Of a stretch of DNA of 64,000 nt, positions 1-50,052 are shown in pieces. Every line of letters starts with the position of its first letter. Position 1 is the stretch's first letter. The notes below the pieces were generated by a model. It saw nothing but the letters and a program-made list of their open reading frames with translations, was not told where the DNA came from and ran no database searches. Position numbers and translations under genes: made by a program. Source of the stretch: Neocallimastix sp. 'constans' (taxonomy: Eukaryota); NCBI GenBank assembly GCA_050613775.1, contig JBODTK010000102.1, positions 1 to 64,000 on the forward strand, read 5' to 3'.

Positions 1-407
1 AAAATGTTTATATAAATTAGCATTAATATTAACATTAATATATAATATAAACATAAATTTTTTTATATAAATAAATATATAATTAATATAATAATAAAAA
101 TTATTAAATATTAAATAATATATTCTCACACATATAATTCAAAACATATAAAAATTTTTATACCAATATAATATGAATTAACTTAATTTTTAATATACAA
201 TAAAATACCACCAAGAAAAATTATTAATTATTAACTTTGAAACTAGGAATAATCCACAGAAAATAATAATAATAATAGAAGTTTTAATTATTAAAGTTTT
301 ACACGAAAACTTTAACAAATAATGTTAAACAAATAAATTAAAATTTGAGTATCCGAGAAATTAATTTAATAAAACTTTTATAATATAAAATTTTAATTTA
401 TTATAAT

Positions 408-957
408 TGATATAAAATGAAATATTCAAACCTTAATTAATATAAAATTAGTTTTTATTATTCAAACATAAATTAATGTCATAAATCAAATTTAAATCTA
501 ATGATTTTACAACAATTTCAATATGTGGCTTGATTTTATATATTAATTATATATTTAATTAATAATAAATTTTATAGCATAAATCAATGTTTTAATTATA
601 TTCTTATCATTTTATATTTATATTTATATAGTTATTAAATATTTCCTTAAATAATAATTATTAATAGTTTATTCTAATCACAAGAACAATTAATTAAATA
701 GTTAATTATAACTAAATAACATAAAAATAAAGCATTTCTCTGAATTAAGAGAATAGCTGAGCAATAGTCGTCGTTGTTGTTTAAAAGTAATATTATGTTA
801 AGTTAGTTTGTAATTAAAAGAATAAGAAAGTTGTTAAATAGTCTCTTTAAATATATGTAGTTTCTATATAAAATTAAATAAATAAATAAATAATAAATTA
901 ATAAATTTAATAAATAAATCCCAACAAAAGTACATCGAACTTTTGAGTTGTATATCA
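408..957 (+). repeat. 5' LTR (550 bp)
   Basis: Same length as 4403-4952 with no difference found by eye; 7-bp terminal inverted repeat. Confidence 0.97.
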
Positions 958-959
958 TT

Positions 960-974
960 TGGTGGAGATATCGG
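960..974 (+). promoter_or_regulatory. Primer-binding site, probably tRNA-Ala 3' end
   Basis: TGGTGGAGATATCGG starts 2 nt after the LTR; complementary to a ...UCUCCACCA tRNA 3' end typical of tRNA-Ala. Confidence 0.75.
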
Positions 975-1141
975 CTCTTGTGGGAGGAAAAATATATTTA
1001 TTAAATTTTAATATTATTTTTTTTAAAATAAAATAAAATAAAATATAATATAATAATAATAATAAAAAAAAAAAAAAAAAAAAATTGTTTTCGATTAAAG
1101 AATTTTTCAGTCAATTAGAAAATAGAATTAAAGTTAAAAAT

Positions 1142-2008
1142 ATGACTGAAGAATTAATTAAAAATCAAAATAAACTAATGCAATTCCAATGCATTCAAGT
1201 CCTTTCAGATTCAAATAAGGATGTTGATGCTTGGTATAACCAGATGAAGGCTTGGATCACTCTTTACCAAATTACTGATGAAGAAGAAATTTTTAATAAT
1301 TGTAAATTTAAAGTGATTGGTAAAAGTATCCATTGTCTTAATGCATTAGTAACTAAAGATGTGGATAATAATATTGTTTATCCATCTTTAGAAGAAATAC
1401 GTGATGCTCTTCTAGAATTTCATGACTTATATATGGATCCAGAAGACATCATTGATAAACTTAAAAATATGGCAATATCTACCAGAGGGAATATAAAGGA
1501 ATTTAACAAAGAATATAAAGAATTATATAATAAACTCGATGAAGATGATCGTAGATGCATTTCTGTTTCGGATTATTTGAAGTCAATTTTTAACAAGAAA
1601 GAAGCATGGAAAGGTGTTAAACTTGCGGGAAAAAGAATTAGTCTAGCAAAAGCTTTTTCTACAGCTGAATTAATTGATGAAGTTGAAAATGAATGTGGAA
1701 AAAGAACTAGTAACTCTAATGGAAATTCTTCTTACAACCAAAAATTTAATTCACATAATAACAAAATTTTTAATAATAAACCAGTCACTCATGAATCACG
1801 TGATAATAATTTCAAAAATAATAATTTGAATAATGATGGAAATAAAGGTAAATATAGAGTCCAGATGTGCTATTTTTGTAACGAAGAAGGTCACAAGAAA
1901 TACAATTGTCCAAAATTTAATCACTTTGAATATTTGAAATACCAAAGAATGCTAAATGAAGAATCAAGTGGTTCTGCTAATGTCTCAAACGAACGTTTAA
2001 ACTACTAA
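1142..2008 (+). CDS. gag: Retrotransposon Gag with CCHC zinc knuckle
   Basis: First ATG at 1142 (the track starts at TTG 1085); CYFCNEEGHKKYNC knuckle; located just after the PBS. Confidence 0.9.
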   Translation: MTEELIKNQNKLMQFQCIQVLSDSNKDVDAWYNQMKAWITLYQITDEEEIFNNCKFKVIGKSIHCLNALVTKDVDNNIVYPSLEEIRDALLEFHDLYMDPEDIIDKLKNMAISTRGNIKEFNKEYKELYNKLDEDDRRCISVSDYLKSIFNKKEAWKGVKLAGKRISLAKAFSTAELIDEVENECGKRTSNSNGNSSYNQKFNSHNNKIFNNKPVTHESRDNNFKNNNLNNDGNKGKYRVQMCYFCNEEGHKKYNCPKFNHFEYLKYQRMLNEESSGSANVSNERLNY

Positions 2009-2047
2009 GAGGGAGTGAACGTTCTCCCTTAAATTCCAATAACGTTC
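1996..2047 (+). promoter_or_regulatory. -1 programmed ribosomal frameshift signal (UUUAAAC + H-type pseudoknot)
   Basis: T TTA AAC in gag phase at 1996-2002. Stem 1 AGGGAG 2010-2015 pairs with CTCCCT 2024-2029; stem 2 GAACGTT 2017-2023 pairs with AACGTTC 2041-2047. The -1 frame is open 1981-4380. Confidence 0.85.
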
Positions 2048-4380
2048 CTGAGAAGAAGAAATATTTTGTTGATGCTGCCAAAAGAAAGGAGTTTTCTTTA
2101 GATGCTGGAACGGAAATTAGGAAAGCTAAAGCAAATACAGCAAGTAAAAGCGATATTTTCCAAAAAGATGAAGAAGAAAAAGATGAAGTAGAAGAAGAAG
2201 TTGATTTATCTAAAAGGAAAATACTAAAACCTAAAGTTAGAAAGAATTTAAAGACGATTACCTTTAATGAGAGCATTAAAATAAATAAATCTTCTCCAGA
2301 TTTAAACAATAATAATAATCATGTTATTAATGATAATAAATTAAACAAAGATGAAGAAATTAAAAATAAAAATAAAATTAATAAAGAAAGTAATAATTAT
2401 GTTAACAAATCATCACGTGAAGACCAGTTGAATAACAAAAATAGAAATAATTTCAAAAATTCAAATATTAATAATTTACAAGGAACTGTAATTAATAAGA
2501 AAGTGGACTTTGAAGAAACAAAATTAAAAATTAATGAACAGGAAGGTAACACAAAACCAGAACGTCACATAAATCTAGCTAAATTAACCAATATGGAACC
2601 GTATGAAATTATTAAAGATTTAGCCAATACCAAATGCAATATTACTTTTGGTCAAATTCTAGATATATGTCCCAAATTAAGGTCCGAATTAACAAAAAAT
2701 TTAAAATTAGAAAAAATTAAATTTGTTAGCTCTTTGGATGCCATGAAACCTTTTATTATTAATGAAGAAGAAAATAATCAGAATAAAATAGAAAATACAA
2801 AATTTCATAGTGACGACTTGGGAATCGTAAATGCATCGGTAGACGATACCGAAGGAAGATTACTCATAGATTCTGGAAGTAATTTGAATCTAGTGAGTAC
2901 TATTTATATTAATAGTCTACCTGGTACTTATGAACAAGTTAATGTATGTAGAGGAAGAATTTATGAAGCTCTTGGGGATAGTACTATTGCGAATGCTATC
3001 GTGGTTCGACTAAAAGTTTCAATTAATAATTATACTTTCACAGCAGATTTCTGTGTTATTGATCATAAAGATATTTACTTTGATTTCTTATTAGGACTTA
3101 AATCAATTGCTGATAATTACCTTTTCATTCATCCGATGTTAAGATCGTTGTGTCGTTTTACTTCAGTTGAAAACTTTGATATCATTGCTCCTATCGTTGA
3201 GAACCAAGCTATTGAAATGAATTCGTGTGGTATCAATTTTATTAGACCTAATAAAAATAGTGAAGAAAATAGTATAAAAGAAATATCTAAGAAAAAGGAA
3301 GTATCATCTCAGGAGGGAAAGAATAAGGACTTAAAAAAAAAGGACATTATGAAAAGTAAAAATTTTAATAAGTCGGAAGAGTTAAAAATTTCTAATGCAA
3401 AAATTCCAAAAATTAATTTAGACAATAAAATTGAAAATTTAAAAATTATTTCAAATTTAAAAATTTTGAGGGAAAAAGCAAGGTATATAGAAAATCCTAA
3501 AATCATAGAAAATTCCAAAAATTCAATAAATTCTGGAGACATCAAAGATAATAAAATATATTATAATCAAAATATATATAGAAATAAATTGACTAATTCA
3601 TTTGATAATATATTAGAATATAATAATAATATGAAGAGTAATACAAATTGTAATAGGCATATACAAGAAATAAATCAAAATAAATTAAAAAAATTTTTAA
3701 ATCAATTAATTCAATTAAAATCCAATATCATTGAGTATAATAATAATATATTGAACAATATAAATTCTTATATATTACAATATAATGAAAGAGATGCTTT
3801 TATGGATGAAAAACATAAAATTAAAGATCTATGTCAATTGCAAAATCAATTATACCAAGTTTTCAATAATATAATATTATATATGAATAAAATATTAGAA
3901 AATAAAATAGATACATATATTAACAATAATAATTACCAAGTTAATGCTATAAATCATAAAGGTTCTAGTAGTAATGAAAGTGCAAATGAAATAGAAAAAG
4001 AACAAAATGAAATTAATACTAAAGATAACAAAGAAATTAGTGAATTTAAGAAAGAAGTTTTAGATGATCATTTTATAAATTTAAATGCAGAAGAATACAT
4101 TAAAGACCGAGATAACTCTAGAAAAATTATCATGAAAAATGAATTTTCAAATACTACAGAAAAATATGCAACAAAGAAACAAAATGAAATAAAAATTGGC
4201 GAGTTAGTCAAAGTAAAAAAATTTTCGAGATATAAATTAGACCCTTATTTTGTTGGACCTTATCAAGTAGTTAAAAAGAAATTTAATACAGTTCAATTAA
4301 TGGATCCTAACACACATACATGCTTAGAACGACCAGTACACCTTAAAAATATTATAAAATTTAATACAACTAATGTATAG
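1996..4380 (+). CDS. pol: Internally deleted Pol: aspartic protease + N/K-rich linker + integrase C-terminal GPY/F module
   Basis: Frame open from 1981; LLIDSGSNLNLV protease motif; KIGELV...KLDPYFVGPYQVV...VHLKNIIKF tail; no YxDD, RNase H or DDE motifs seen. Confidence 0.85.
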   Translation, partial: FKLLRGSERSPLNSNNVPEKKKYFVDAAKRKEFSLDAGTEIRKAKANTASKSDIFQKDEEEKDEVEEEVDLSKRKILKPKVRKNLKTITFNESIKINKSSPDLNNNNNHVINDNKLNKDEEIKNKNKINKESNNYVNKSSREDQLNNKNRNNFKNSNINNLQGTVINKKVDFEETKLKINEQEGNTKPERHINLAKLTNMEPYEIIKDLANTKCNITFGQILDICPKLRSELTKNLKLEKIKFVSSLDAMKPFIINEEENNQNKIENTKFHSDDLGIVNASVDDTEGRLLIDSGSNLNLVSTIYINSLPGTYEQVNVCRGRIYEALGDSTIANAIVVRLKVSINNYTFTADFCVIDHKDIYFDFLLGLKSIADNYLFIHPMLRSLCRFTSVENFDIIAPIVENQAIEMNSCGINFIRPNKNSEENSIKEISKKKEVSSQEGKNKDLKKKDIMKSKNFNKSEELKISNAKIPKINLDNKIENLKIISNLKILREKARYIENPKIIENSKNSINSGDIKDNKIYYNQNIYRNKLTNSFDNILEYNNNMKSNTNCNRHIQEINQNKLKKFLNQLIQLKSNIIEYNNNILNNINSYILQYNERDAFMDEKHKIKDLCQLQNQLYQVFNNIILYMNKILENKIDTYINNNNYQVNAINHKGSSSNESANEIEKEQNEINTKDNKEISEFKKEVLDDHFINLNAEEYIKDRDNSRKIIMKNEFSNTTEKYATKKQNEIKIGELVKVKKFSRYKLDPYFVGPYQVVKKKFNTVQLMDPNTHTCLERPVHLKNIIKFNTTNV

Positions 4381-4389
4381 TTGTATCTT

Positions 4390-4402
4390 AAGGTGGGACG
4401 AA
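4390..4402 (+). promoter_or_regulatory. Polypurine tract
   Basis: AAGGTGGGACGAA immediately before the 3' LTR. Confidence 0.75.
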
Positions 4403-4952
4403 TGATATAAAATGAAATATTCAAACCTTAATTAATATAAAATTAGTTTTTATTATTCAAACATAAATTAATGTCATAAATCAAATTTAAATCTAATGAT
4501 TTTACAACAATTTCAATATGTGGCTTGATTTTATATATTAATTATATATTTAATTAATAATAAATTTTATAGCATAAATCAATGTTTTAATTATATTCTT
4601 ATCATTTTATATTTATATTTATATAGTTATTAAATATTTCCTTAAATAATAATTATTAATAGTTTATTCTAATCACAAGAACAATTAATTAAATAGTTAA
4701 TTATAACTAAATAACATAAAAATAAAGCATTTCTCTGAATTAAGAGAATAGCTGAGCAATAGTCGTCGTTGTTGTTTAAAAGTAATATTATGTTAAGTTA
4801 GTTTGTAATTAAAAGAATAAGAAAGTTGTTAAATAGTCTCTTTAAATATATGTAGTTTCTATATAAAATTAAATAAATAAATAAATAATAAATTAATAAA
4901 TTTAATAAATAAATCCCAACAAAAGTACATCGAACTTTTGAGTTGTATATCA
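4403..4952 (+). repeat. 3' LTR (550 bp)
   Basis: Direct repeat of 408-957. Confidence 0.97.
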
Positions 4953-5140
4953 TAATATTCATTTTTATTTTAATACATTTCAAATTTTAATTTATAATAA
5001 TTTTAAAATGTTCAATTTTATCAATCCATTAAAAATAATATTAATGTTTTATTAAATGAAAATAAAATTAAATTCAATCCAATCCATAATATAAATTTCT
5101 TTATTTTTGATAAATTTTATTCAATAATATTTAATCCAAT

Positions 5141-5345
5141 CTTAAGGAAATATCCTAATAATCCAATATTAATTCGTGGTGACCATATCGTAAGAAAACA
5201 ATGATGTATAAAAATGTTTTTAGAAGAAAATAAAAAAATATCCTAATAATATAATTTTTGGTACTTCAAATCAATAATTAACACCTGAATATAAATGGAA
5301 ATCATATTAATATTTATATATAAAATTAGAAGTAGGTGAATTGTT
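5141..5345 (+). pseudogene. Decayed coding fragment, possibly a GT-A glycosyltransferase (cargo of family A)
   Basis: Reads LRKYPNNPILIRGDHIVRKQ*...KKYPNNIIFG, resembling a decayed DxD region. The homologous stretch in the other copy (~34430-34510) runs on into further coding remnants and a GT8 piece. Confidence 0.4.
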
Positions 5346-5720
5346 CTATTATATAAAATTAATAAAAAATAAAAACACACATTATTTAAATACAGTTATA
5401 TTCAATACGCTTAATATAATCTATATATAAAAAAATAAAAAAAAAAATTATATTATTATATATGTAATAATCAACAATAAACCAATATTATAAATTATAT
5501 ATTTTTATTGTTTTTGTAAATTATTTTATTTATTTTCGGAAAAATTTAAAAATAATAATTATAAATAATCTGACAAAACAAGACAAACCTAAAAAAAAAA
5601 ATAGAAATATAAAACTAAATTATAAAATGAATATAAATATATAAATAAAAATAAGAATTCTATTTTTTTAAAAAAAAAATTTTTTAGAAGTTAAAAAAAA
5701 AAAATAAAAAATAATTAGAA

Positions 5721-6468
5721 ATGGTTGAATCTAATATTTATTTTTAGTTTAACTTGGTTTAATCAAGCTTTTAAAGAACAAGTTAACGCATAATTTGGCT
5801 TTTTTTAACCAGTTAAAACTATTGATCCAAAGGTTGATACCGCTATTGATAAACTTAATAGATTAAAGAAATATATCAAACAAACTGAAGACAATGTTAA
5901 AAAGATGATTAATTGAATGAAAATTACCATGAATGCACAAAAGCAATTTGCCTTTGTTTCTAAAGATGCAAAATTAAAAGGAGATAAAGTTGTTTTAAAA
6001 CAAAAATTAAATCTTGTTAGTGATTCTTTAAGTTCAAATTCTAAGGATATTGAATGCTTATATTTAACAGCTCTGGAAAACTCCATAAATAGTTAAAAAC
6101 TTTATTAGATAAACGTTCTTAGATAAGGCTATTCGTCATGCCGAAGGTTCTGTTTACAATTATAATACTGTTCGTATTGAAATGGATATTACCACTCAAA
6201 TGATTGTTCAAACTAAACAAAAATTAAGTAATGAAATAAATGGTAGTCAGGAATATAGACAGGTTACCTTAATATTAAGGGAACATGAACAATTCTATAA
6301 AATAAAGTAGGATAAATATGAATTTTTATGTGAAGAAGTTATTCAAAGTTTGAATTATTAGAAACTAAGTGTAAGGATGATATATCATATTACCTTCAAT
6401 CTGTGTATGATTCTATGAATATTTTCTATCATCAAACAGTAAAATATTTCCCAGAAAGTGATTCATAA
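5721..6468 (+). pseudogene. Arfaptin-homology (BAR) domain pseudogene, intronless
   Basis: FKEQV..FGF..VKTIDPKVDTAIDKL, YNTVRIEMD and DKYEFLCEEVIQSL.LLE...YLQSVYDSMNIFY match the arfaptin/AH pattern; several stops and frameshifts. Confidence 0.7.
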
Positions 6469-6787
6469 AATTATAATTAAAAAAATTAATAATAATAATA
6501 ATAAAATAAGATAAAAAGACATAATAATAATTTAAGTAAAGAAAGATTAATTGATAATAGTAATGATAAAAAAAAAAAATAACACTAAACCAATTTGAAG
6601 GTAAGAGGAAATATATATATATAATTTATTAAATTTATAAATAATATCAAAATAACTTATTTCTATATACTTTCTAATATGTTAATTGTATTAGGATTAA
6701 AAATAAAAATATTATTTAATAATATAATACATTTGCCACATTTCTACTCAACTCTAACTTTCACTCAAAGTTAGATTTGAGGGGGAA

Positions 6788-6994
6788 TGTTAGAAACAAA
6801 AATGTAAAGATTTATAATTATTAATTAAAGGATAATGTTATATATATATTAATATATTAGTGTAAGGTATGTGACCAATAATAATAACAGGCCACATTTT
6901 ATGTTTAATATAAATACTATCAAAATGTACAAAATTATATAAATATACTATTCTTTATTCTTACGTAATAAACAAGTAATTCCTACTTTTCACA
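6788..6994 (+). repeat. Family A LTR (207 bp, 3' LTR)
   Basis: TGTTAGAAAC...TTTTCACA preceded by a PPT; homologous to 32555, 36131, 36720 and 49846. Confidence 0.9.
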
Positions 6995-8567: not shown

Positions 8568-8734
8568 TGTTAGAGACAAGATTATTATATTATTAACTTA
8601 TGTCAACCAATTATTAATCTCTAAGTAAATTAAATAATATTAAGATATAAAAATGTGAAATAAATTTAATATAAAAAATTATCTCTTCATAATAAAATAT
8701 TCTTAATAAACATTTTATAATATTACCCATAGCA
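8568..8734 (+). repeat. Family B short LTR-like repeat
   Basis: TGTTAGAGAC...CATAGCA with a purine-rich tract upstream; reverse-complement homologs at 29188 and 37262. Confidence 0.7.
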
Positions 8735-24900: not shown

Positions 24901-27548
24901 CCACTAAAGAAATCTACCTTTTGCTTAGTGAGGCAAGTATATCAAGTGAAAGCGCCAATTGTATTTTAGCTAGTAATAGTCAACCAAAATACATAGATTC
25001 CAGTATGATTGGACATGAACTTAATAATGTTGAAGTTAATAATCGTTTGATTGAATTAACTGGAAATGCTATCAGACCGGCTAAAGCAGGATATTATATT
25101 GTTGACGGAAATTACACACTTACCGACAATAATAATGAAGAAACAGAGACCACCATATACAGCTGTACTAATTCCGAATGTGAAACGATTGCAAATCTTG
25201 AAGATGGAGAAAAGATAATTGTTAATGATGGTACCATGTTTGAAGTTGATGAAGAAGGACATTTAAAGAAGGTCACTGAAGATGGTCTTTACTTCTTTAA
25301 TTCCGAAGGAAAATTGTGTACAAATGAAGAATGTACCATTTCTGAAATTATTAGAATCACTGAAGGAGTATCTGAGGTGATCGAAAAAGATTTATTAAAG
25401 GAAGGTATATATGTAAATGCTGGTGATAAAAAATCAGTAGGTATTTATGATGGTAATGATTGGAGTATTTCTTCATTAGAATGTACCTATGTTGAAAGCA
25501 GTAAGAGTTGTAGTAATGATGATATTGAATTAGGTATTGGTAGTTATTGTATCGCAGATGGAAAAATATATGTTATCTATGAAATTAATGAGGAAATGAA
25601 TGAAAAGAAATGTATTCCAGGAAGTGATGAGAAACCATTATATATTACTAATGTAAATGGTGAATTAATGAAAATTAAGAAGGAAAACATTGAAATAATT
25701 GAAGTTGAAGGTTATTATGCATACAATGCAAAGACATTGGAAGCCCTTTCATCTGAAGAAGAAGTAGAAAGTAAATTAGTTCGCTGTAATAATGAAAAAT
25801 GTAGCATAGTAATTCCAAGTATTGGAAGCTACCTTAACAAATCACCAAATGAAAGTAATATTGCTCAATTTACTGAGAATGAGGTAGGTAAAGCAAAAAC
25901 TATTGAAAAAGAATGCAGTGTCAATGGTGAATCCTGTACTGTCAATGACGGTAATAGTTTAAGTGTCGGTGATATTTGTATCAATGAATCCACTCTCTAT
26001 TTAGTGGATGAACAGAGCAAATGTTATATGGTGGATAGAAATATAGATAACTACAGAGTAGTAGGTGGAAAATTATATATGTTAGCCGATGATTCAGTTA
26101 TTCAGAAATTCGATGGATACTACTTCCTTAATAAAATGAATCGTGCCATCACTAATAAGAAGGAATATAGTGAATCAGGTGTTGTTGGCTATATGTGTAG
26201 TAATGTAGGTGACTGCTTCCAAATTCAACCTCGACCAGATCGTCTATATCCTGATTACACCACAAAGAAAGGTAATAAATTTACTGTATTAAGATTTGAT
26301 CCGGATAAGCTCTCTAAACGTGATGAAGGTAGTAGTGGCTATGAATCAATTACTGAGGAAGGTATCTTCAAAATGGATGATGGAAGCTATGCAGAATGTG
26401 AATTTGATAATAATGATGAAATTACCTGTCATAACATTGAAAATGTCGGAACTTACAAGAGTGATGTCAGTGAAACTGGTGAAGGTGAATTGATTAATTG
26501 TACTAAGAATGAAGAAGGTGAAATTGAATGTATACAAGCTACAGAAGGTGGTTACTACGTTGTGAATGATAACTTGGTGTCCTGTGTTCCAAATGAAGAT
26601 AAGAACGAATTAATTTGTAGTGATATGGATAAGGAAGGTTACTTCATTTCAAACTCTAATGGTGATCTCTACAGATGTGATGAAATACAAGAAACAGAAG
26701 AAGTAGACACCGCCAGTATAAGTAGTGTGTTTGAAAAATTGGATGCAATGAATATAATGATAAAGCGCAGTGAAGAGGATCCTTTACCACCGGATACAAA
26801 TCCAGTTCAAGAGGATACAAATCCAGTTCAAGAAGATACAAATCCAGTTGAAGAGGCAGAAAACGAAAGTAATGATAGTACCAGTACTATTGAAGAAACA
26901 ACAGCAACTACAGAAGTACCAAATCCAACGCCAACGCCAAAAGATGTATCATGTGCAGTGGTAAAATGTGAAAACGAAAATGAAAAGATTACCTTCTTAA
27001 CGGAAGAAGGTGAAAAAGAGTTGTATATTTGTAAGAATGTAAAAACAATTGAACCTGAAACGGGTGAACCAAATACTGAAGAAGAAGAAAAAGAAGAAGA
27101 TATGAGATGGGTTGCTCAAGAAGATTGTACTTGCTACGTTATGTTAGGAGAATATTACAGTTGTGATGATGATAAGGGTGAAATTGAGAAGATTGATAAA
27201 CCCAATAAAGAACACACATCAACGAGTGCAGATTTCACCATAACTACAAAGAAAACTACGGTTACCGCCACCACAACAACATCGACGACAACTGAAAATG
27301 CTACAAATGAAGCATCCACAACTGATAAATCAACTTCCAAAACGAAGAAAGCGACTTCAACGACAACAAAGAAAAGCGAAAAAACTACGACAAGTACAAC
27401 AGCAGGTGGAGCTACTAGTAAGACAACAACTACAACTAAACCAGCTGCTACTACCACAACAACAGGTGGTGCTTTATCAATAAGAAATATACCATCGTTT
27501 ACTTTCTATCTTATTCTTTTAGTTTTTACATATTTTATTTTATTATAA
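9986..27548 (+). CDS. scaA: Fungal cellulosome scaffoldin (ScaA-like), ~5,800 aa, 2 exons (9986-10043; 10153 or 10159-27548)
   Basis: Exon 1 encodes MNNIKFLILLLVGFLGLNL followed by a GTATGA donor and in-phase AG acceptors. Dozens of GYY..N...LIxC-x(3-8)-C repeats, dibasic KR sites, a Thr-rich stalk and a terminal hydrophobic segment. The symbol reflects architecture, not confirmed orthology. Confidence 0.9.
26793..26855 (+). repeat. Coding 21-bp tandem repeat x3 (DTNPVQE)
   Basis: GATACAAATCCAGTTCAAGAG repeated three times with minor changes. Confidence 0.95.
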
Positions 27549-28361
27549 TTTAATACCACTATACTATTAATAAATTAATAATATATTAATATAAATTATA
27601 TATATGTAATATCCAAGAAAAATTATTATATTTAATAGAAATATTAATCTACACATATAATATTAATATTTAAAATATATATATAAGTAAAAATTTAATA
27701 TAATATAAAATGATAAAAAAAACCTTTACTTTATAATAAATTATTCTAGTTATATAATTTAATAATAATAATAATAATAATAATAATTAATACAATTGTA
27801 TTTAAAATTATAAAAAATATACTAAAATATTGTTTTTATAAAAATATTTATTAAAAATTTATTTACAAGAATTGAATGTTAGGATTAATGAAAAAATATA
27901 AATAATAATTATTTTGTTTTAAAAATTTTTAAAAAATACCAAATAATAATAATTAAAAATGTATTTTTTTAATATTTAATATGAAATTGAAATATAAATA
28001 AATAAGAAAATAGCAATTTAAAATATACATAAAATAATGAGTATTAAAGTGTTTTATAGTTATTTAAAATCAAAATTTATAAAGTTAATTTTATTAAAAA
28101 AAAAAAAAAAAATAGTTATTGAAAGTACAGTTATTTAAAACTTTTTATTACGAATTTAATATATTTAAAATATTTTATTAAATATAAACTAAATTTATAG
28201 TTAATATTAAAAGAGATAATTTTGATATAAATTTTTATAATTTTATTTGGATATACATAATTGATTGCTAAATTATTAGAGGTTGAATTAGAAATATAAA
28301 ATTAAAGTTTTATAAGTATATTAATTTAAAGAGTAAAGTTATACATTTTAATACATCTATA

Positions 28362-28493
28362 TAAGATATGTAATTAATAATAATAACAAGCCACATATTA
28401 TGATAACTATAAATACCATTAAAATGTATAATATTTTAGAAACATACTATTCTTAATTCTTACATAATAAAATAGAGATTTTTACTTTTCAAA
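28362..28493 (+). repeat. Diverged partial family A LTR
   Basis: AAGATATG...GCCACATATTATG...ATACTATTCTT...TACTTTTCA matches the 3' two-thirds of the 207-bp LTR. Confidence 0.7.
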
Positions 28494-29187
28494 GGTTGGA
28501 TAATTAATTTTATTTAATATTTGTTGAATAATATGATTAATACCATATTTATTAGTATTATATGTATTTTTATTATAGTAAGTATAATCTACTCTGATTC
28601 GTGATCTGGAATAAAATTTGAAATTTTGGATAAGCATTTTTAAGATAACTGTTTCCAGGATTGGATTTGAAAAAAACATCTAATCTTGATAGGATTATTT
28701 TATTAGTAGTAATATCTAAAATTTTATAAGCTGATAGATTTTCAGAGTATCCCTGGTTTAACATTGTTAACGAATTTTGATTTAAAGATTATAGGAATAA
28801 AAAAATAAATTTTGAATCTAAATAATTTAATATTTGGGTAGTTTATCTTTATTTTATTAATTATTTCTTAAGGGATTTTCAGATTTATACTTTTTTATGG
28901 AATACGATTATGGATATAAATAGGAGTAGATGTAGCATTTTCCCCAAAATTGGTACCTATTTTTAGAATCCCTCAGCATAGCTTTGACTGAATTTATTAA
29001 GGTGCCATTGAAACGTTCCATCCTTCCATTTTGTTGTGAATTATATTATACAGTTAGGTGATGTTTAATACCATAAGATTTGAAGAATAAATAAAGTCAT
29101 TATTACAAAATTTTCTACCATTATATATTTAATTCTATTATTATACTTAATTTTAATAATTAAAAGCCAACTATAAAATGAATTAAA
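28494..29187 (-). mobile_element. Copia integrase and post-integrase relic
   Basis: Reverse complement aligns with ~44025-44755 (QQNGRMERFNGTLINS, KILDITTNKIILSR, SNPGNSYLK). Confidence 0.85.
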
Positions 29188-29350
29188 TGTTATGAGTAAT
29201 TTTATAAAATGTTTATTAAGAATATTTTATAATAAAGATATTTCAAAGAGATAATTTTTTAAATTAAATTTATTTCACATTTTTATATCTTAGTTAATAT
29301 TATTTAATTTACTTATATATTACTTGTTGACTGATATAAGTTAATAATAT
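29188..29350 (-). repeat. Partial family B LTR-like repeat
   Basis: TGTTATGAGTAAT... is colinear with 37262-37430. Confidence 0.7.
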
Positions 29351-31320
29351 AAATAAATATATAAACCAATTTTATACTTTACAATTTTAATAATATAAAT
29401 GTAATATTTTTTTTACTAATAAATTATTAATAAAAAATCACTGAATAAAAATAATTTATTAAGAGGAAATATTTTTACAATATAAAAATTTAAATAAATT
29501 CTTTTTATTCTTAATATATATATATATAATTATAAATTTTATTAATCAGAGATAATAGTTTATAAATAAAATTAAATATCCATTATACTAAATATTTTAT
29601 ATACAATTAATTTAAATTTAATTTATATATTTACTAAAAATTATTTTTACAAGTTTTACATTATATTTTTATTTGAAAATGTTAAATGATAATATTAATG
29701 TGTTGAAAATAATATTTATTAATCATATTTTACATACAAACAAAATAAGATAAGAAATTTACAAAATAGTTCATAAAATTTGAAATCCTAAATATTCAAA
29801 GGAAATATAATAGAATGATAATTTCTTGTGTGAAGTGGATGCATTCTAACAATCATAGTTACTAAATGTGAAATTGATTTAAATAATAACTAACCTATAT
29901 AATTATAATACAAACCTTCGTAATAAAAAGTATGATAAAATAATAAATAATTCCACAAAGTTCTATATAAATGGAAGACATTTATTCATATATATACTAT
30001 ACTTATTAAATGTAAAGTAGTCAAGAGGTATAAATATTAAACCATTATGATTAGAATTTTAATAATGAAAAAACTCAAATATTTAAAATCCTTTTAAAAA
30101 TTTGGATTTTACGTAGGAGTGGACATAATAATATTAAGAGCATAAATATTAAAGGATAGTTACTTAATTAATTCATTGTTTTGATTATTTATTAATTATA
30201 TTTATTTAGGAAATGAATAAAAATAAATTTAAAGAGAAAATTAGCAAAAAATAATCCACAAGAAAAATTAATTAAAATTTAGAAATTTTATAAAATATGA
30301 AATAATCAATATTATTTACTAATAAGTTTAAATTGTTAGAATAATATGAATTGTTATAATTATAATTCAATTTTAATAACAAAGATTATTATTTTATAAG
30401 TAAAACAATATATAATGATTAATAATTTATTTTAATAGTTATTGTTAAAACTATAAAGCGAAAATACATAAAAATTAATGCCAATCTATAAAGAAGATTA
30501 TAATTGAAAGTAATATAAATCTTAAAAAATAAGAAACATTTGCTATTTATAAATTATCCTTTAAGAGAAAGATTTCCATTTTATTAATGATATTTAAAAG
30601 TCATAAATTATGATCTATTAGATACATCCTATATTAATTGTGTAATAATATTAGATATATATATTTTGGAAAAATCATTTTATTACTAATATATTTAAAA
30701 AATTATTTTAGTAATATATAATCTAATAAGAAATTAATATAAATTGAAATTATTTTATTAATATAAATTTAAATTAGATTAGAAAATAAATAATTCATTG
30801 TTTAATAATAATTAAATATATAATATTATAAAATATGATAAACTTAAATATATTTATTCACCAGTAAACCCATTTATTCGTGATAGAATAAGGAGGAATA
30901 TTAAAATATATAAAATAAATGAAAAATAATTTTCATTTGAATTGAAACATATAATAATATAGTTAATGTGTAAGTCACAATACAAAGTTATAATATAAAA
31001 GTATTTAATTTAAAATAATTAAATGAATAACTTTAAATCTTAAAATATATTAATAAAGTTAACATAATAATGGGCCATAAATTCCTGACTCTCGACAATT
31101 ATTATTATTATAATATTATTATTTCATTAACTATAATTGATATTTTTTTTATAAAATTTTAACTTTAATTTGAAATTATTTAAGTAAAGAAAATAATTAT
31201 TTATTAATAGAAATATTCTTTACATTAATGGTCTTTTTCTTATTATTTAAATTTTATAAGAACAAAATTAATGCTTAATTTTTGAATATAATTTAATTAA
31301 ATAATAAATAATTATATATA

Positions 31321-32554: not shown

Positions 32555-32761
32555 TGTGAAAAGTATAAATCTCTTTTTATTATATAAGAATAAAGAATAG
32601 TATACATACATAATTTTATACTTCTTTATAGTATTTATAATAAAAATAATATGTGGCTTTTTGTTACTATTGGTCACATATCTTACACTAATATATTAAT
32701 TTATATAACATTACTCCTTTAAATAATATAACTATAAATCTTATTATTTTTGTTTCTAACA
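32555..32761 (-). repeat. Family A 3' LTR
   Basis: 207 bp, TG...CA termini, adjacent PPT. Confidence 0.92.
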
Positions 32762-33066
32762 TTCCCCTTCAAATCTAACTTTGGGTGAAAGTTAGAGTTG
32801 AAGAGAAATATTGCAAATGTATTACTATATAAAATAATATTTTTAATAATAATACAACTAACATATTATTAAGTATATGAAAAGAATTATTTTTATTTTT
32901 ATTTGTAAACTTAAGAAATTTTTTTATATACTTTAAATTCTAACGTTTCCCCTTACTTTCAAATTGGATTGGAGTTATTTTTTTATTATTAAAATTATTT
33001 ATTAATCTTTCTTTACTTAAATTATTATTATGTCTTTTTATCTTATTTTATTATTATTATTATTTT

Positions 33067-33520
33067 TTATTTATATGAATCACTTTCTGGGAAATAATTT
33101 ATTGTTTGATGATAGAAAATATTCATAGAATCATACATAAATTGAAGGTAATTTGGTATATCAGCCTTACCCTTAGCTTCTAATAATTCAATATTTTTAA
33201 TGACTTCTTCACATAATAATTCATATTTATCCTTCTTTATTTTATAATTGTTCATGTTCCCTTAATATTGAGATAGCACGTCTACATTCTTGAATGCCAT
33301 TAATTTCGGTACTTAATCTTTATTTTGTTTGAGCAATCATTTGAGTAGTAATATCCATTTCAGTACGAACATTATTATAATTATAAACAGGATCTTCGGC
33401 ATCACGAATAGTTTTATCTAAGAAAGTTTTTAGCCATTCATGGAAGTTTTCCATAACAGGTAAGTATAAATAATTAATATCTTTAGAACTTGAACTTAAA
33501 GAATAACTAACAAGATTTAT

Positions 33521-33585
<65 letters not shown>

Positions 33586-33822
33586 CTTTATCTCCTTTTG
33601 ATTTTGCATCTTTAGATACAAAGGCAAATCGCTTTTGTTCGTTCATAGTTGTTTTCATACAATTAATCATCTTTTTAATATTGTCTTCGGTTGTTTGATA
33701 TATTTCTTCAATCTATTAAGTATATCAATAGTTGTATCAACCTTTGGATCAACAGTTTTAACTGGTTAGAAAAAGCCAAACTGAGCATTAACTTGTTCTT
33801 TAAAAGCTTGATTAAAGCAAGC
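33067..33822 (-). pseudogene. Second arfaptin/BAR pseudogene copy
   Basis: Colinear with 5755-6468; KKDKYELLCEEVIKNIELLEAKGKADIPNYLQFMYDSMNIFY; disrupted by stops and a ~53-nt homopolymer. Confidence 0.75.
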
Positions 33823-33912
33823 TGAAAAAATATAAAAAAAAATTACAAAACTATAACAATATATAATTTATAATATTGGTTTATTGTTGATTATTACATT
33901 TATACTAATATA

Positions 33913-33946
<34 letters not shown>

Positions 33947-34074
33947 TATATATTGATTATATTAAGAGTATTGTATATAACTGTATTTAAATAATGTGTA
34001 TTTTTTATTATTATTATTATTTTTTTTTTTTTTTTTTTTTTTTACTAATTATAAATAATAAAATTTAATTCATT

Positions 34075-34190
34075 TGATAAAATGCTGTATTTGTCATCAT
34101 GTATTACTAGAATATCTCCATTAAATTAATTATTATTTTTATAAAATAAATATAACACTGTTTCAAAATCTACAACGCATTTGTCATTTA
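34075..34190 (-). pseudogene. GT8 glycosyltransferase fragment (cargo)
   Basis: Ungapped 116-nt match to 57271-57386 with 21 mismatches counted by eye; FETVLY.FYK...FNGDILV. Confidence 0.85.
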
Positions 34191-35459
34191 TTTGTTAATT
34201 CAAAGTAATATCTTTTAAATAATAATAAATTGCGAAGGATAAACGTAACTTCTTATTTTCAATAATATTAAAACACCACTGCGAAGATTCATCGGATAAA
34301 TGAGTTAATTTCATAAAAAAAAATATTTTTCAAAAAATCTTTTATTGGTAAATATATTTATTAGTTATAAAATACCTCCAAATCTATTCATAGGTTTTCT
34401 GGTATTAACGATCATATTTTTAATAGCATTTAAATCTCCTTCTTCTTTTTTATATATAAATATATATATGATTCCCATTTATGTTTAGATGTTAAGCATT
34501 GATTTGGAGAATAATAAATAATTCAAATAATATATTTTAAATTTTTTTATATAGATTATCTAAATTTAATCTTCCCTATTATTGTTAATGATATATATAA
34601 ATGGGTTTTATATGAATAAATATGTTATAAAAAAAATTATATAAATATTTTAAATATCAAGTTTCGAGATTTAACAAAATTTAGATTAATAAATGATAGA
34701 TTAGATTTTTATAAATATTATATATTATTAATAATATAATTTTTTTAAAAATATTTTAAATTGTTATTAATATTGATGGAATGTATTAAATATTATTGAT
34801 TAAAGTTTAGCAAAAATAATGAAATTTATATTATTGATTGAATTTAATTAATTTTAATTTAATAAATCATTAATATTATTTTTAATAGATTGATATAATT
34901 GAACATTTTAAAATTATTATAAATTAAAATTTGAAATATATTAAATAAAAATATTATAATAAATTGAAATTTTATTGATTATAAAAGTTTTGTTAAAAAT
35001 AATTTCTCGGATACTTTAATTTTAATTTATTTCTTGAACATTATTTGTTAAAATTTTAGGGTAAAACTTTAATTATTAAAATTTCTATTATTATATTTTC
35101 TGTGGATTGTTTCTAGTTTCAACGTTAATTACTTGTTAATTTTTCTTGATGGTATTTTATTGTATATTAAAAATTAAGTTGATTCATAATAAATGTATAT
35201 TATATCTTTTAAATTATTTTGAATTGTATAATGTCAGAACGGATTTTGTGTGTAAGGATATATTATTTAATATTTAATAATTTTATTATTTTATTAATTA
35301 TATATTTATTTATATTAAAAATAAATTATGTTTATATTATTTATTAATGTTAATATTAATTTTTATAAATCATTTTTATTTGTCTCTTTTTCAATTAGTT
35401 GTTAATTTTTTATTTTATGTGTTTCATTAATATTTAGTTAAAAATAGTTATTATTAATT

Positions 35460-35820
35460 AACTTGAATAAACAGATTATTTGTAATTGATAATTCTTAGT
35501 CTTAATAACTTAAAATGACTATTATTTTAAATTTAATTATTCAAAACTTCACTAGTTAGACTATTATTTTTATTTTTATTTTCTATTATTTTCAATTTAG
35601 TTAGTCTAGTTGACAATCATTTTATACTTAATTATTTACAACTTAGATAAACTAATCAATAATTATTTTTATTTTTATTGTTAATCAACCTAGCTAGTTG
35701 ACAATTATTTTTATTCTATTATCAATTATTCACAACTTAGCTAGTTGACATTTATTTTTTATTTTCAATAATTCTCAACTTAGATAGACTAGTTGACTAT
35801 TATTTTATTTTAATATTTTC
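35460..35820. repeat. Degenerate ~45-50 bp tandem array in the 5' internal region of family A
   Basis: About 7 recurring AACTTAG(n)TAGTTGAC(n)ATTATTTTTATT units. Confidence 0.8.
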
Positions 35821-36099
35821 TTTTTATCTAATTATATGTATATGTATTTATATCATTTTTTATTTTTAATAATTAATAATAACTATGACCTATTACAATA
35901 AGCATTTTATTTTAAATTTTATATCCTTAACATTCTCACAATTGTTCTGTAATATTTTCTTATGGATATTGGTTATTACGTTTTGCTTCTATAATAAATT
36001 TTATAAAAATAATAAAAATATATATTTATTAGTTTGATTAGTAATAATTTTATATTTAAATGATTTTATATTTTATATATTTCAACTTAGCTTTATGGA

Positions 36100-36130
36100 T
36101 AGCTCAACTGAAGAGTTGAGACTCTTAATC
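36100..36130 (-). promoter_or_regulatory. Half-tRNA primer-binding site complementary to the tRNA-Lys(CUU) anticodon arm
   Basis: Minus strand reads LTR-CA|GATTAAGAGTCTCA...TGAGCTA; the plus strand TAGCTCA...AGAG.TGAGACTCTTAATC matches a tRNA-Lys(CUU) 5' half. Confidence 0.75.
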
Positions 36131-36337
36131 TGTGAAAAGTATAAATCTCTTTTTATTATATAAGAATAAAGAATAGTATATATACATAATTTTATACTTC
36201 TTTATAGTATTTATAGTAAAAATAATATGTGGCTTTTTGTTACTATTGGTCACATATCTTACACTAATATATTAATTTATATAACATTACTCCTTTAAAT
36301 AATATAACTATAAATCTTATTATTTTTGTTTCTAACA
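36131..36337 (-). repeat. Family A 5' LTR
   Basis: 207 bp, followed on the minus strand by the PBS. Confidence 0.92.
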
Positions 36338-36926
36338 ATTACCTTCAATCTATGTATGATTCTATGAATATTTTCTATCATCAAACAATAAATTTCTTCC
36401 CAGAAAGTGATTCATATAAATAAAAAATAATAATAATAATAAAATAAGATAAAAAGACATAATAATAATTTAAATAAAGAAAGATTAATAAATAATAGTA
36501 ATAATAAAAAAATAACACCAATCCAATTTGAAAGTAAGGAGAAACGTTAGAATCTAAAATATATAAAAATAATTTCTTTAATTTACAAATAAAAATAAAA
36601 TAAATATTTTTCATATAGTATTATTATTATTAAAAATAAAATATTATTTTATATAGTAATACATTTGCAATATTTCTCTTTAACTCTAACTTTCACCCAA
36701 AGTTAAATTTGAGGGGGAATGTTAGAAACAAAAATATTAAGATTTATAGTTATATTATTTAAAGAAGTAATGTTATATAAATTAATATATTAGTGTAAGA
36801 TATGTGACCAATAGTAACAAAAAACCACATATTATGTTTACTATAAATACCAGAAGAAGTATAAAATTATGTATATATACTATTCTTTATTCTTATATAA
36901 TAAAAAAAAGATTTATACTTTTCACA
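36338..36926 (+). mobile_element. 3' fragment of another family A copy (arfaptin 3' end, PPT, LTR 36720-36926)
   Basis: Aligns with 6390-6994; TTTGAGGGGGAA then TGTTAGAAAC...TTTTCACA. Confidence 0.88.
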
Positions 36927-36929
36927 TAT

Positions 36930-37200
36930 AATTATGTATATATATTTATATTATATTATTTTTTTTTAAAGATTAAAAATAACTATGGCCTATTACAATA
37001 TATTCTCACAATTGTTCTGTAATATTTGTCTATTGATATTGATTATTACGTTTTGTTTCTATAATGAATATTATGAAAATAATAAAAATATATTTTTATT
37101 AGTTTGGATATTAATGATAAATTGATTATATCTTTTATTTATTCCAACTTAGCTTTATTGATAGCTCAGCTGAAGAGTTGAGATTCTTAATCTGTGAAAA
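36930..37200 (-). mobile_element. Diverged family A fragment (LTR tip, PBS, start of internal region)
   Basis: Direct homolog of ~35830-36138, including TAGCTCAGCTGAAGAGTTGAGATTCTTAATCTGTGAAAA. Confidence 0.8.
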
Positions 37201-37261
37201 AAAAATTTATAAATCTAAGAAAAACACTGTATTAATAAAAACAATATAACAAAGTATTTTA

Positions 37262-37462
37262 TGTTATGAGTAATATTATAAAATGTTTATTAATAATTTT
37301 TATTATAAGGATATATATATTTTTTCTAAGAGATATTTTACATTAAATTTATTTCATATTTTTATATCTTAGTTAACATTATTTAATTTACTTAGAGATT
37401 AATTATTGGTTGATATAAATTAATAATATTAATAAATGTATGTAACAATTTCGTCTCTAACA
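37262..37462 (-). repeat. Family B LTR-like repeat (201 bp)
   Basis: TGTTATGAG...CTCTAACA; homologous to 8568-8734; adjacent minus-strand purine-rich tract. Confidence 0.72.
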
Positions 37463-37611: not shown

Positions 37612-38800
37612 TTGCATAAAAATAAATTTCTTAAATATGAAATAAAAAAAAATAAACTATTATTTGTTTTAAAATTGATAACTTTGAGTATATCATTATT
37701 AGTTATATTTTTTATTAACATTAGTAATGATCCTTTATTATTACCATACAATAATGTTCCAGCAACAATTGCAGCTGGAAATAAAATCAGTATTCCAATT
37801 TCCAATAAAAAAATTTTTATTTCAAATTGGGCTGCTTTAGGAAATTCATATTAATCTATTGAAAATAATGAAATAACTGATTATTCACCAATAACATATT
37901 TCAGAAATTATACAACTTTAGAATTACATATTCTTAATGTTGGTGGTGATGCATATTACGCTACCTTTTATGGTAGTTCAGATACTAAATCCTTCTTGTG
38001 ATGGTAAAGGTCCAGATACTAAATATTATTTCTACCAGTTATGGCAACGATTTATGTGATTCATATGCCGTTGTTATGACCGCTGAAGCAGATGGTGAAA
38101 ATGATAGTATAATGGTTAAAGATTATTGATAGTTGTTATGAATGTGAATGTTCTCACATTGATCTTAGTAGATATGCCTTTGCTGATAAGATAGATGGTG
38201 AAATGAAGCTTATTTGGGTTGTTGCTAATTCCAAGGGTAAGATTACAAAAGATATCATTTAACCATCTTCCCAAACTGAAAAATTCGTTAAGAGTAAATA
38301 TGGTTTAACTAATCCTCAATTTGTTTCTATATACAAGAGTAAGCATTAAATATTATTAAAGAAAGTAAAGGTTATACTAGTTTCAATAAGTCTGAAGTTA
38401 TAGTTACTACTCCAAAGACTACTGTTTCTGCTAATGTTCCAGCCACAACTTCTGCTCCAATTGCAATCGCAACTCCAGCTACTAATTCTATTGTTAATGC
38501 TAAAGATAATTCTATTCCAGATGATGCTCTAATTTTTGGTCAAACCAAAATTATTGATCCAAACAAATCTGATTATACTGATGAAAATATTTAGATTATT
38601 AAAAATCAATTCCCAAATAATGAAGAATAAGAAAGTAGTTACATTTTCTTTCTGCCGCTTTAGCTGTTTCCGATGCCACTGGTATTGGTTTTATTTACTT
38701 AAAGAATCAAAATCCAGGTAAATACGAAGAATTAAATCAAAAATTCCCAGAAACTGCCAACGCTAAGAATTAAAGATGAAAATACATATTACAACTGTAA
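37612..38800 (+). pseudogene. Expansin-like/RlpA-like double-psi beta-barrel membrane protein pseudogene
   Basis: ATFYG...DLCDSYAVV...IIDSCYECECSHIDLSRYAF...LIW, then a T/A/P linker and a TM-like segment (ATGIGFIYLK); multiple stops and frameshifts. Confidence 0.7.
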
Positions 38801-44983: not shown

Positions 44984-45032
<49 letters not shown>

Positions 45033-49269: not shown

Positions 49270-49482
49270 GAATTATAAAAAACTTTAATTCCTTCGACTA
49301 ATCAAAATTCAGTAAATAATTCTTCTTTTAGTTTAAATTGTTTACAGAAGATATACTCTAGAATTTGGAATGGAGAATTTCCTAGCACATGGAACGAAAC
49401 AAGTATTATATCTATTCCTAAAAAAGGAGATGATCTATCGGATTATGACAATTATCGAGGTATCACTCTGATTGATAATGAT
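49270..49482 (+). mobile_element. LINE reverse-transcriptase fragment
   Basis: IWNGEFPSTWNETSIISIPKKGDDLSDYDNYRGITLID. Confidence 0.85.
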
Positions 49483-50052
49483 ATAATTCTCAACTTAGAT
49501 AGAATAGTTGACTATTATTTTATTTTAATATTTTCTTTTTATCTAATTATATGTATATGTATTTATATCATTTTTTATTTTTAATAATTAATAATAACTA
49601 TGACCTATTACAATAAGCATTTTATTTTAAATTTTATATCCTTAACATTCTCACAATTGTTCTGTAATATTTTCTTATGGATATTGGTTATTACGTTTTG
49701 CTTCTATAATAAATTTTATAAAAATAATAAAAATATATATTTATTAGTTTGATTAGTAATAATTTTATATTTAAATGATTTTATATTTTATATATTTCAA
49801 CTTAGCTTTATGGATAGCTCAACTGAAGAGTTGAGACTCTTAATCTGTGAAAAGTATAAATCTCTTTTTATTATATAAGAATAAAGAATAGTATATATAC
49901 ATAATTTTATACTTCTTTATAGTATTTATAGTTAAAATAATATGTGGCTTTTTGTTACTATTGGTCACATATCTTACACTAATATATTAATTTATATAAC
50001 ATTACTCCTTTAATTAATATAACTATAAATCTTATTATTTTTGTTTCTAACA
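49483..50052 (-). mobile_element. Truncated family A copy (5' LTR 50052-49846, PBS, internal start)
   Basis: 570 bp nearly identical to 35768-36337 (~3 differences by eye). Confidence 0.92.

What the first reader, a model, noticed from the sequence alone, without database searches (positions are those of the whole stretch)
32555..36337. Recently mobile non-coding LTR element ferrying host gene pieces, including glycosyltransferase domains ('Pack-LTR')
Seen: near-identical 207-bp LTRs, a PBS and a PPT enclose 3.4 kb with no gag/pol. Instead it holds same-strand remnants of a probable GT domain, a GT8 piece 82% identical to the intact gene at 57271-57386, and an intronless arfaptin/BAR gene. 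At least five full or partial copies lie in this window (1-6994, 32555-36337, 36338-36926, 36930-37200, 49483-50052). Inference: a family of transducing elements that could spread and recombine enzyme domains in this fungus.
Basis: partly seen in the sequence, partly recalled or inferred. Interest (0 to 1): 0.85.

Follow-up and report, generated by a model that had tools for sequence, protein, structure and literature searches.

The report
Fungal jumping gene carrying dead retrocopies
In a rumen fungus, a jumping gene that has lost its own enzymes carries broken pieces of two host genes (an arfaptin and a sugar transferase); it likely picked them up once by copying host RNA and likely kept jumping afterwards, a known process that is seldom recorded in fungi.

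Summary
The element is real and lies on the minus strand of a Neocallimastix genome. It has 207-bp LTRs (205/207 identical), a polypurine tract, and a primer site matching the 5' half of tRNA-Lys(CTT), which points to copia. There is no gag/pol. The cargo is one chimera. The first part is an internal piece of a GT2-like+GT8 gene family, not of the window's GT92-GT8 gene. The second part is an arfaptin copy that lacks the parent's intron. Window copies share a stop codon, a 3' deletion and the intron loss, so the cargo was captured once and was already dead when it spread. LTR and cargo diverge together between copies (11-13%), while this element's two LTRs differ by 1%, which indicates later rounds of retrotransposition. 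Nineteen N. lanati gene models on at least 10 contigs hold the same cargo. Copies also cluster with GT8 genes, so block duplication may add to the spread. It works like maize Bs1 and Drosophila LTR-mediated retrocopies: a new member of a known kind.

The parts
36131..36337 (-). 5' LTR of copy A, 207 bp, TG...CA
   Evidence: 205/207 to the 3' LTR
36091..36130 (-). Primer-binding site matching the 5' half of tRNA-Lys(CTT), ending at tRNA position about 40
   Evidence: 113 of 120 loci holding its two motifs are tRNA-Lys(ctt) by ARAGORN; Rfam gave only a weak tRNA match from 36093 (13.3 bits, E 2.5)
34521..36090 (-). AT-rich non-coding leader with degenerate 43-47 bp tandem units; no coding remnant identified
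34069..34510 (-). Cargo 1: broken internal fragment of a GT2-like+GT8 gene (residues 181-373 of P0068, 46 codons deleted, frameshifts and stops)
   Evidence: GT2-like is an Atlas lead only (score 0.97, PF00535 on 45% of the cluster's members)
33824..34050 (-). Cargo 2a: upstream (5' UTR) sequence of the arfaptin parent; about 240 bases including the start codon are deleted in A but kept in copy D
33079..33823 (-). Cargo 2b: processed arfaptin (AH/BAR) pseudogene, 89.5% identical to the parent mRNA, intron at codon 93 absent, stops at codons 34 and 167, about 46-base poly-A expansion
32975..33078 (-). Cargo 2c: arfaptin 3' UTR after a deletion shared by copies A, C and D; the match ends at an A-run
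32762..32974 (-). Element 3' tail ending in the polypurine tract
32555..32761 (-). 3' LTR of copy A
36338..36926 (+). Copy C: 3' part (arfaptin tail, PPT, LTR). A's 5' LTR end abuts its cargo, and its own LTR end abuts the sister element's leader
49483..50052 (-). Copy B: 5' LTR, PBS and 363 bp of leader, 99.5% identical to A, truncated
1..6994 (+). Copy D: older copy (GT residues 139-207, arfaptin with start codon, PPT, 3' LTR 6788-6994), interrupted by a gypsy-like element at 408-4952; 5' end outside the window
36927..37462 (-). Sister element 5' end: a different 270-bp LTR (LTR-2, 37462-37193), the same half-tRNA-Lys PBS and a 76% identical leader
   Evidence: an A-like leader joined to LTR-2 also stands in runs X1 and X3 (table 5)
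28288..28491 (+). Lone diverged LTR of the same family (79%), without PPT or PBS

Best explanation
This is a non-coding LTR element of a Neocallimastix fungus that carries a dead chimera of a glycosyltransferase fragment and an intron-free arfaptin copy; it is likely a copia-type retrotransposon that captured both host RNAs once by template switching and was likely copied again many times by a helper element. Shown: LTR pair, PPT, PBS motif, identity of both parents, decay of the cargo, shared lesions among copies, five distinct LTR flanks. Shown at protein level only: the parent's intron. Inferred steps: a tRNA-Lys(CTT) cut near position 40 primes minus-strand synthesis. In the particle, reverse transcriptase left the element's 3' tail at an A-run and copied the spliced arfaptin mRNA through to its 5' UTR. 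It then copied part of a GT mRNA and returned to the element's leader, so gag-pol was replaced. The chimera lost function early (shared stop at codon 34). An autonomous copia, possibly the LTR-2 sister family that shares the PBS and leader, kept mobilising it, which reset the two LTRs to near identity. Nested insertion and later recombination or deletion left the fragments and the unmatched flanks in this window.
For: LTRs 205/207 with PPT. PBS motifs are tRNA-Lys(ctt) in 113 of 120 loci; the last matching base is tRNA position 40 in 86 of 113. Half-tRNA priming is described only for copia lineages (PMC6317226 passages; PMC10886601 section 3.6). Intron: unspliced gene calls of the parent, P0021 and P0022/P0023, break at codon 93 in the way a GT..AG intron requires, while A and D run straight through. 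One capture: 24 of 695 sites are A=D but not parent, a stop at codon 34 is shared, and a 3' deletion is shared by A, C and D. Neutral decay: mismatches by codon position are 25/19/29 in A and 26/19/19 in D, against 51/31/82 in an intact relative. Later transposition: A5-A3 LTR 1.0%, A-C LTR 4.4% with tail 5.6%, A-D LTR 13% with cargo 11-12%. Two 5' ends and three 3' ends stop at the exact LTR terminus with five different flanks. Spread: 19 N. lanati gene models on at least 10 contigs, plus N. constans and N. californiae models. Of 28 models tested, 12 join GT piece and arfaptin and 3 run into the PPT/LTR edge.
Against: Copy A has no TSD, and no 5' flank matches any 3' flank in the window. No gag/pol remnant marks the switch points. 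The GT parent appears intronless (a full-length 602-aa call in metagenome contigs), so RNA capture of the GT piece is not shown. No genomic DNA of the arfaptin parent was seen. All 4 N. lanati contigs on which my searches found a GT8-family gene also hold cargo copies, copies often lie a few genes apart, and one model (P0030) repeats D together with its flank, so block duplication or haplotigs explain part of the count. LTR gene conversion could also homogenise A's LTRs. No autonomous partner was tied to this LTR. None of the 32 listed pieces (of 5519 laid) bridges the A/C junction.
Confidence: 0.78

Rival explanations
1. A LINE first retroposed the arfaptin mRNA into or beside a GT gene. This DNA chimera later came to lie inside a copia-derived element, by insertion, recombination or read-through, and was then amplified. 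The element would still be mobile, but the capture would not be a template switch in the particle.
For: The arfaptin match ends at an A-run. A LINE-like reverse-transcriptase fragment abuts copy B (ORF 49279-49584; family named from recall). Cargo copies cluster with GT8 genes.
Against: No GT sequence resumes after the arfaptin: tblastn finds nothing for residues beyond 373 in the element tail. The parent contig L004 continues past the A-run, so it is an internal A-run rather than a clear poly(A) tail.
Confidence: 0.1
2. The pattern comes from segmental duplication of a GT/arfaptin-pseudogene block, with solo LTRs inserted afterwards or LTRs kept alike by gene conversion.
For: No TSD. Copies are clustered, truncated and inverted. 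They co-occur with GT8 genes on 4 of 4 contigs, and P0030 shares D's flank.
Against: The PPT and LTR are fused at the same base in A, C and D, and the PBS and LTR in A and B. Homology stops exactly at the LTR termini with five different flanks. A's LTRs differ by 1% against 13% to D's. The intron loss needs an RNA step anyway.
Confidence: 0.07
3. Copy A as assembled is a hybrid or misassembly of two loci joined through near-identical LTR or leader sequence. The family is real, but this unit never existed as one insertion.
For: Unmatched flanks. B is 99.5% identical to A's 5' part 13.7 kb away. No listed contig spans the stretch or bridges 36337/36338.
Against: Both junctions fall exactly on the LTR termini. 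A N. lanati model (P0039) matches A's arfaptin peptides at 100% in both of its matched stretches. The colinear copy D has the same order of parts.
Confidence: 0.05

Closest known systems
LTR-mediated retroposition (Tan et al. 2016, PMC5131818; passages read)
   Same: Partial retrocopies between LTRs, a chimera of two parent genes, intron loss, and secondary rounds of retroposition as a non-autonomous element.
   Different: There the flanking internal ORF pieces of the element are recognisable and microsimilarity was shown against simulations. Here no gag/pol piece is left and microsimilarity is untested. The host is an early-diverging fungus; that paper describes the yeast cases as induced or screened in assays.
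Maize Bs1 (as described in PMC5131818 passages)
   Same: Pieces of unlinked host genes fused inside an LTR element, with copies sharing the switch points.
   Different: Bs1 has three parents and 1-5 copies. This has two parents, at least 19 annotated copies, and a cargo dead since the common ancestor of A and D.
Half-tRNA-primed copia elements: Ty5, Drosophila copia, Candida Tca2-type, plant Osser/Bianca, Puccinia copia and fungal Helenus (PMC6317226 passages; PMC4139406 passages; PMC10886601 passages and section 3.6)
   Same: PBS directly behind the 5' LTR, complementary to the anticodon arm of a tRNA. [quoted passage not shown]
   Different: The half-tRNA primers named in the passages I read are iMet, Ile, Arg, Tyr and Asp/Asn. 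Half tRNA-Lys(CTT) was not among them (supplements not read). There is no tRNA sequence inside the LTR, and it is too long for a TRIM.
Pack-MULE, Pack-CACTA and Helitron gene capture (search listing only; mechanism recalled)
   Same: A non-autonomous element carrying host gene fragments.
   Different: Those are DNA transposons that capture genomic DNA. This one has LTR, PBS and PPT, and spliced cargo, so the 'Pack' label is only an analogy.

Membership tests
Non-autonomous LTR retrotransposon | Two direct LTRs with TG...CA ends | tested here: met
   205/207 identical
Non-autonomous LTR retrotransposon | PBS behind the 5' LTR and PPT before the 3' LTR | tested here: met
Non-autonomous LTR retrotransposon | No functional gag/pol | tested here: met
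   longest stop-free run 84 codons; no hits
Non-autonomous LTR retrotransposon | Target-site duplication at this copy | tested here: not met
   flanks GTAAT and ATAAC; copy A is not an untouched insertion
Non-autonomous LTR retrotransposon | TSD-flanked copies at other loci | not testable with these tools
   no genome held; LTR scans found 0 in metagenome and genome collections
Copia superfamily (half-tRNA primed) | PBS complementary to a tRNA cut in the anticodon stem | tested here: met
   113 of 120 loci are tRNA-Lys(ctt), boundary at position 40 in 86 of 113; tested with viral tRNAs, not the fungus's own
Copia superfamily (half-tRNA primed) | Pol order and phylogeny of an autonomous partner sharing the LTR or PBS | tested here: inconclusive
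   LTR-2 shares the PBS and leader, and an LTR-2 copy lies directly upstream of a copia integrase fragment; no intact partner seen
LTR-mediated retrocopy (Tan et al. 2016; Bs1 type) | Cargo lacks the parent's intron | tested here: met
   arfaptin codon 93; intron inferred from unspliced gene calls, parent DNA not seen; no test possible for the GT piece
LTR-mediated retrocopy (Tan et al. 2016; Bs1 type) | Partial copies, possibly of several parents, in the sense of the element | tested here: met
LTR-mediated retrocopy (Tan et al. 2016; Bs1 type) | Microsimilarity at the switch points | tested here: inconclusive
   A-run at the 3' junction and a 7-8 base shared word at D's GT-arfaptin joint; not tested against chance in about 85% AT DNA
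LTR-mediated retrocopy (Tan et al. 2016; Bs1 type) | Secondary retroposition | tested here: met
   LTR pair 1% against 11-13% between copies; five distinct flanks; conversion not excluded
LTR-mediated retrocopy (Tan et al. 2016; Bs1 type) | Co-transcription from the LTR | tested here: inconclusive
   short low-depth pieces in one RNA run; DNA carry-over not excluded
TRIM / Helenus | Under 1000 bp; tRNA-derived sequence inside the LTR | tested here: not met
   3783 bp; the tRNA match lies outside the LTR

The most novel reading that the evidence does not exclude
A still-active, half-tRNA-Lys-primed copia system in anaerobic gut fungi homes to glycosyltransferase gene clusters. Its non-autonomous members carry varied cargo, some of it intact, and their cDNA recombines with resident GT genes to build the domain-swapped GT2-GT8 and GT92-GT8 architectures seen in these clusters.
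Probability: 0.1. Interest if true: 0.75.

Novelty: new member of a known kind. Interest (0 to 1): 0.42.

Why it matters
It is a natural, multi-copy case of LTR-mediated capture of spliced host mRNA in an early-diverging fungus. The review and the paper I read list natural cases for plants and animals and induced ones for yeast, and my searches for a fungal or Neocallimastix case found none (an open-licence library only). It adds a likely half-tRNA-Lys primer. It also explains about 19 spurious 'hypothetical protein' models in one Neocallimastix annotation. Because the cargo is dead and of one kind, it shows a route for enzyme-domain shuffling but no product of it.

Tried and rejected
Whole-genome survey: no genome is held. 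LTR patterns gave 0 in metagenome contigs, 0 in prokaryote genomes, and 1 match on a 180-kb viral contig that I take as chance and did not examine. The parent's genomic intron was not fetched: all three identical loci (L002-L004) are intron-free and look like transcripts, and the extra bases in L007 are a short repeat of coding sequence, not an intron. The idea that the 3' tail is an older degenerate LTR was rejected (218 of 500 shuffles and 127 of 200 background windows score as high). LTR-1 versus LTR-2 homology is not significant (126 of 368 background windows), and LTR-2 versus the LTR of the copia at 46897 is weak (11 of 368). Gag remnants: no Pfam hit for 3 of 3 pieces, no homolog. Rfam did not identify the PBS (tRNA E 2.5), ARAGORN finds no tRNA in the window, and the first tRNA pattern found nothing. 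A fold of the GT parent failed (mean pLDDT 38.5), so no fold search was run; NCBIfam gave 0 families. Laid contigs were too short to show flanks or TSDs, and depth is no copy number: one LTR contig in X3 had depth 518 against 31-54 for most other listed pieces, a hint only. Earlier findings: none for this genome or sequence.
Full report
Setting. The window is about 10-35% GC by kilobase. Its best protein relatives are all from Neocallimastix, so it comes from an anaerobic gut fungus of that genus. No whole genome is held, so evidence on other loci is indirect.

Anatomy. The element (copy A) reads on the minus strand. The 5' LTR is 36337-36131 and the 3' LTR is 32761-32555; they are 205 of 207 identical and have TG...CA ends. 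A polypurine tract abuts the 3' LTR at the same base in copies A, C and D. The 3369-bp interior has no stop-free run longer than 84 codons. Two candidate gag remnants and the GT piece gave no Pfam hit, and one remnant gave no homolog. The flanks are GTAAT and ATAAC, so there is no TSD.

Primer site. From memory, the bases behind the 5' LTR looked like the complement of a lysine tRNA, so I tested this. ARAGORN called tRNA-Lys(ctt) 113 times and no other tRNA, and the last matching base was tRNA position 40 in 86 of 113. The 11-mer occurs three times in the window, each time directly behind an LTR; 0.73 are expected by chance. Half-molecule priming is described as confined to copia lineages (PMC6317226, passages; PMC10886601, section 3.6; PMC4139406, passages). 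Lysine was not among the half-tRNA primers in those passages; I did not read their supplements. The fungus's own tRNA was not available.

Cargo 1. A search with the read-through piece found a 602-686 aa family with an N-terminal domain of no Pfam family and a C-terminal GT8. The Atlas places the N-terminal part near GT2-like clusters (0.97; PF00535 on 45% of members; a lead). Copy A holds residues 181-373 of P0068 with a 46-codon deletion; copy D holds 139-207. The window's gene at 56494-58554 is GT92+GT8 and shares only the last 41 residues of the piece (81.3% over 123 bp). The stretch of P0068 that matches most solved GT8 enzymes, 410-446, is not in the cargo.

Cargo 2. The parent is a 262-aa arfaptin, identical in three named Neocallimastix annotations (P0017). 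Three contigs encode it without intron (L002-L004). Copy D matches L004 from about 390 bases upstream of the start codon into the 3' UTR; A has lost about 240 bases including the start. Unspliced metagenome gene calls of the parent split at codon 93: P0021 runs on from KLKG with a glycine codon, and P0022/P0023 enter with leucine then aspartate. That is what a phase-1 GT..AG intron gives. A and D read straight through. This is protein-level inference; I did not see the parent's genomic DNA. A is 89.5% and D 91.2% identical to the parent. Changes are spread evenly over codon positions, unlike in an intact relative. A and D share 24 of 695 differences from the parent and a stop at codon 34, and A, C and D share one 3' deletion. 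So there was one capture, and the cargo was dead before the copies diverged.

Movement after capture. LTR and cargo diverge together: A-C 4.4% (LTR) and 5.6% (tail); A-D 13% (LTR) and 11-12% (cargo). A's own LTRs differ by 1.0%. With DNA duplication alone, A's two LTRs should be about as far apart as A's and D's. Reverse transcription resets them; gene conversion is the alternative. The two 5' ends and three 3' ends in the window each stop at the exact LTR terminus with five different flanks. A's 5' end abuts the interior of C's arfaptin, and C's 3' end abuts the leader of a sister element, as nested integrations would. The expected other half of C is missing on A's left, so a later deletion, recombination or misassembly must be assumed.

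Other copies. Four of the five listed places are this family. The fifth, 36930-37200, follows a different 270-bp LTR (LTR-2, 37462-37193) that shares the PBS and a 76% identical leader. LTR-2 recurs at 29372-29154, directly upstream of a copia integrase fragment, and near 8568-8806 as a solo LTR with flanks GTGAT/GTTAT. Runs X1 and X3 each hold a contig that joins an A-like leader to LTR-2. The LTR-2 family is the best lead for the helper, but no intact helper was seen.

Genome-wide spread, indirect. Searches list 19 N. lanati gene models with the decayed arfaptin on contigs of 10 different lengths, models on 6 N. constans contigs, and one N. californiae model. Of 28 models aligned to A, 12 join the GT piece and the arfaptin (one further 'GT' hit, a poly-lysine artefact, was dropped) and 3 run into the PPT/LTR edge. 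No full-length cargo protein appeared besides the parent cluster and its 71% paralog; an intact copy could hide inside those clusters. These are predicted proteins, not DNA, so LTR pairs and TSDs cannot be read from them. Against pure dispersal: copies often lie a few genes apart, all 4 N. lanati contigs on which I found a GT8-family gene also hold cargo, and P0030 repeats the D-like model with its flank.

Runs. Twenty-four runs from 19 studies hold part of the element. I laid 4 of them on 35700-37330. Thousands of short variant contigs map there, which fits a repeat family. None spans the stretch, and none of the 32 listed pieces bridges the A/C junction. The RNA run X18 has three listed pieces of 86-170 bases on A's leader and LTR at depth 5-14, against 166 for a piece of the parent-like arfaptin; transcription is not shown.

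Comparison. The features match LTR-mediated retroposition as defined by Tan et al. (PMC5131818, passages) and reviewed in PMC5470649 (passages): partial copies, several parents, LTR flanks and secondary rounds. Maize Bs1 is the closest single case. Tan et al. describe the yeast cases as induced or screened. My searches for a natural fungal or Neocallimastix case found none; a LINE-made chimeric retrogene in Magnaporthe appeared in a listing only. The library lacks most subscription papers.

Verdict. The feature is real and the mechanism is known. The new points are the host lineage, the copy number and the likely half-tRNA-Lys primer. The claim of enzyme-domain shuffling is not supported: one dead chimera, no catalytic GT8 core, no second cargo. 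Interest 0.42.

Noticed in passing
window 408-4952 (+): Very young gypsy-like element inside copy D: identical LTRs of about 550 bp, 4-bp TSD TAAT, intact gag (zinc knuckle) and a 799-codon frame with a protease and a weak integrase SH3 tail, but no RT, RNase H or integrase core. A non-autonomous gag-protease element.
   Followed up: partly
window 37193-37462, 29154-29372, 8568-8806: Second LTR family (LTR-2, 270 bp) sharing the half-tRNA-Lys PBS and leader. One copy precedes a copia integrase fragment, one is a solo LTR with a 4/5 matching 5-bp flank. Summed contig depth over it is several times that over LTR-1.
   Followed up: partly
window 43787-46848 (+), LTR from 46897: 5'-truncated, frameshifted copia (integrase, RT, RNase H) with a third LTR type; a fragment at 28499-29190 is 81% identical to its integrase.
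   Followed up: partly
window 10137-27548 (+): Uninterrupted 5803-codon ORF, Cys-rich repeats with a Thr-rich tail; resembles the giant scaffoldin-like proteins of anaerobic fungi (recalled, not tested).
   Followed up: no
window 41695-42633 (-), 56494-58554 (-), 51069-52710 (-): Sugar-metabolism cluster: an intronless GT-D gene, an intronless GT92+GT8 gene and a UDP-glucose dehydrogenase. The GT8 module occurs behind two different N-terminal domains in this genus.
   Followed up: partly
window 49279-49482: LINE-like reverse-transcriptase fragment (family recalled from its motif) fused directly to the truncated end of copy B.
   Followed up: no
window 33524-33576: A run of 53 A (element sense) has expanded inside the arfaptin frame of copy A; a metagenome call of the same copy type (P0033) implies a much shorter run.
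   Followed up: partly
window about 37870-38790 (+): Frameshifted gene remnant that looks by eye like an RlpA/expansin-type protein (recalled, not tested).
   Followed up: no
P0029 (named records in three Neocallimastix annotations): A second intact arfaptin, 71% identical to the parent; the cargo derives from P0017, not from this paralog.
   Followed up: partly
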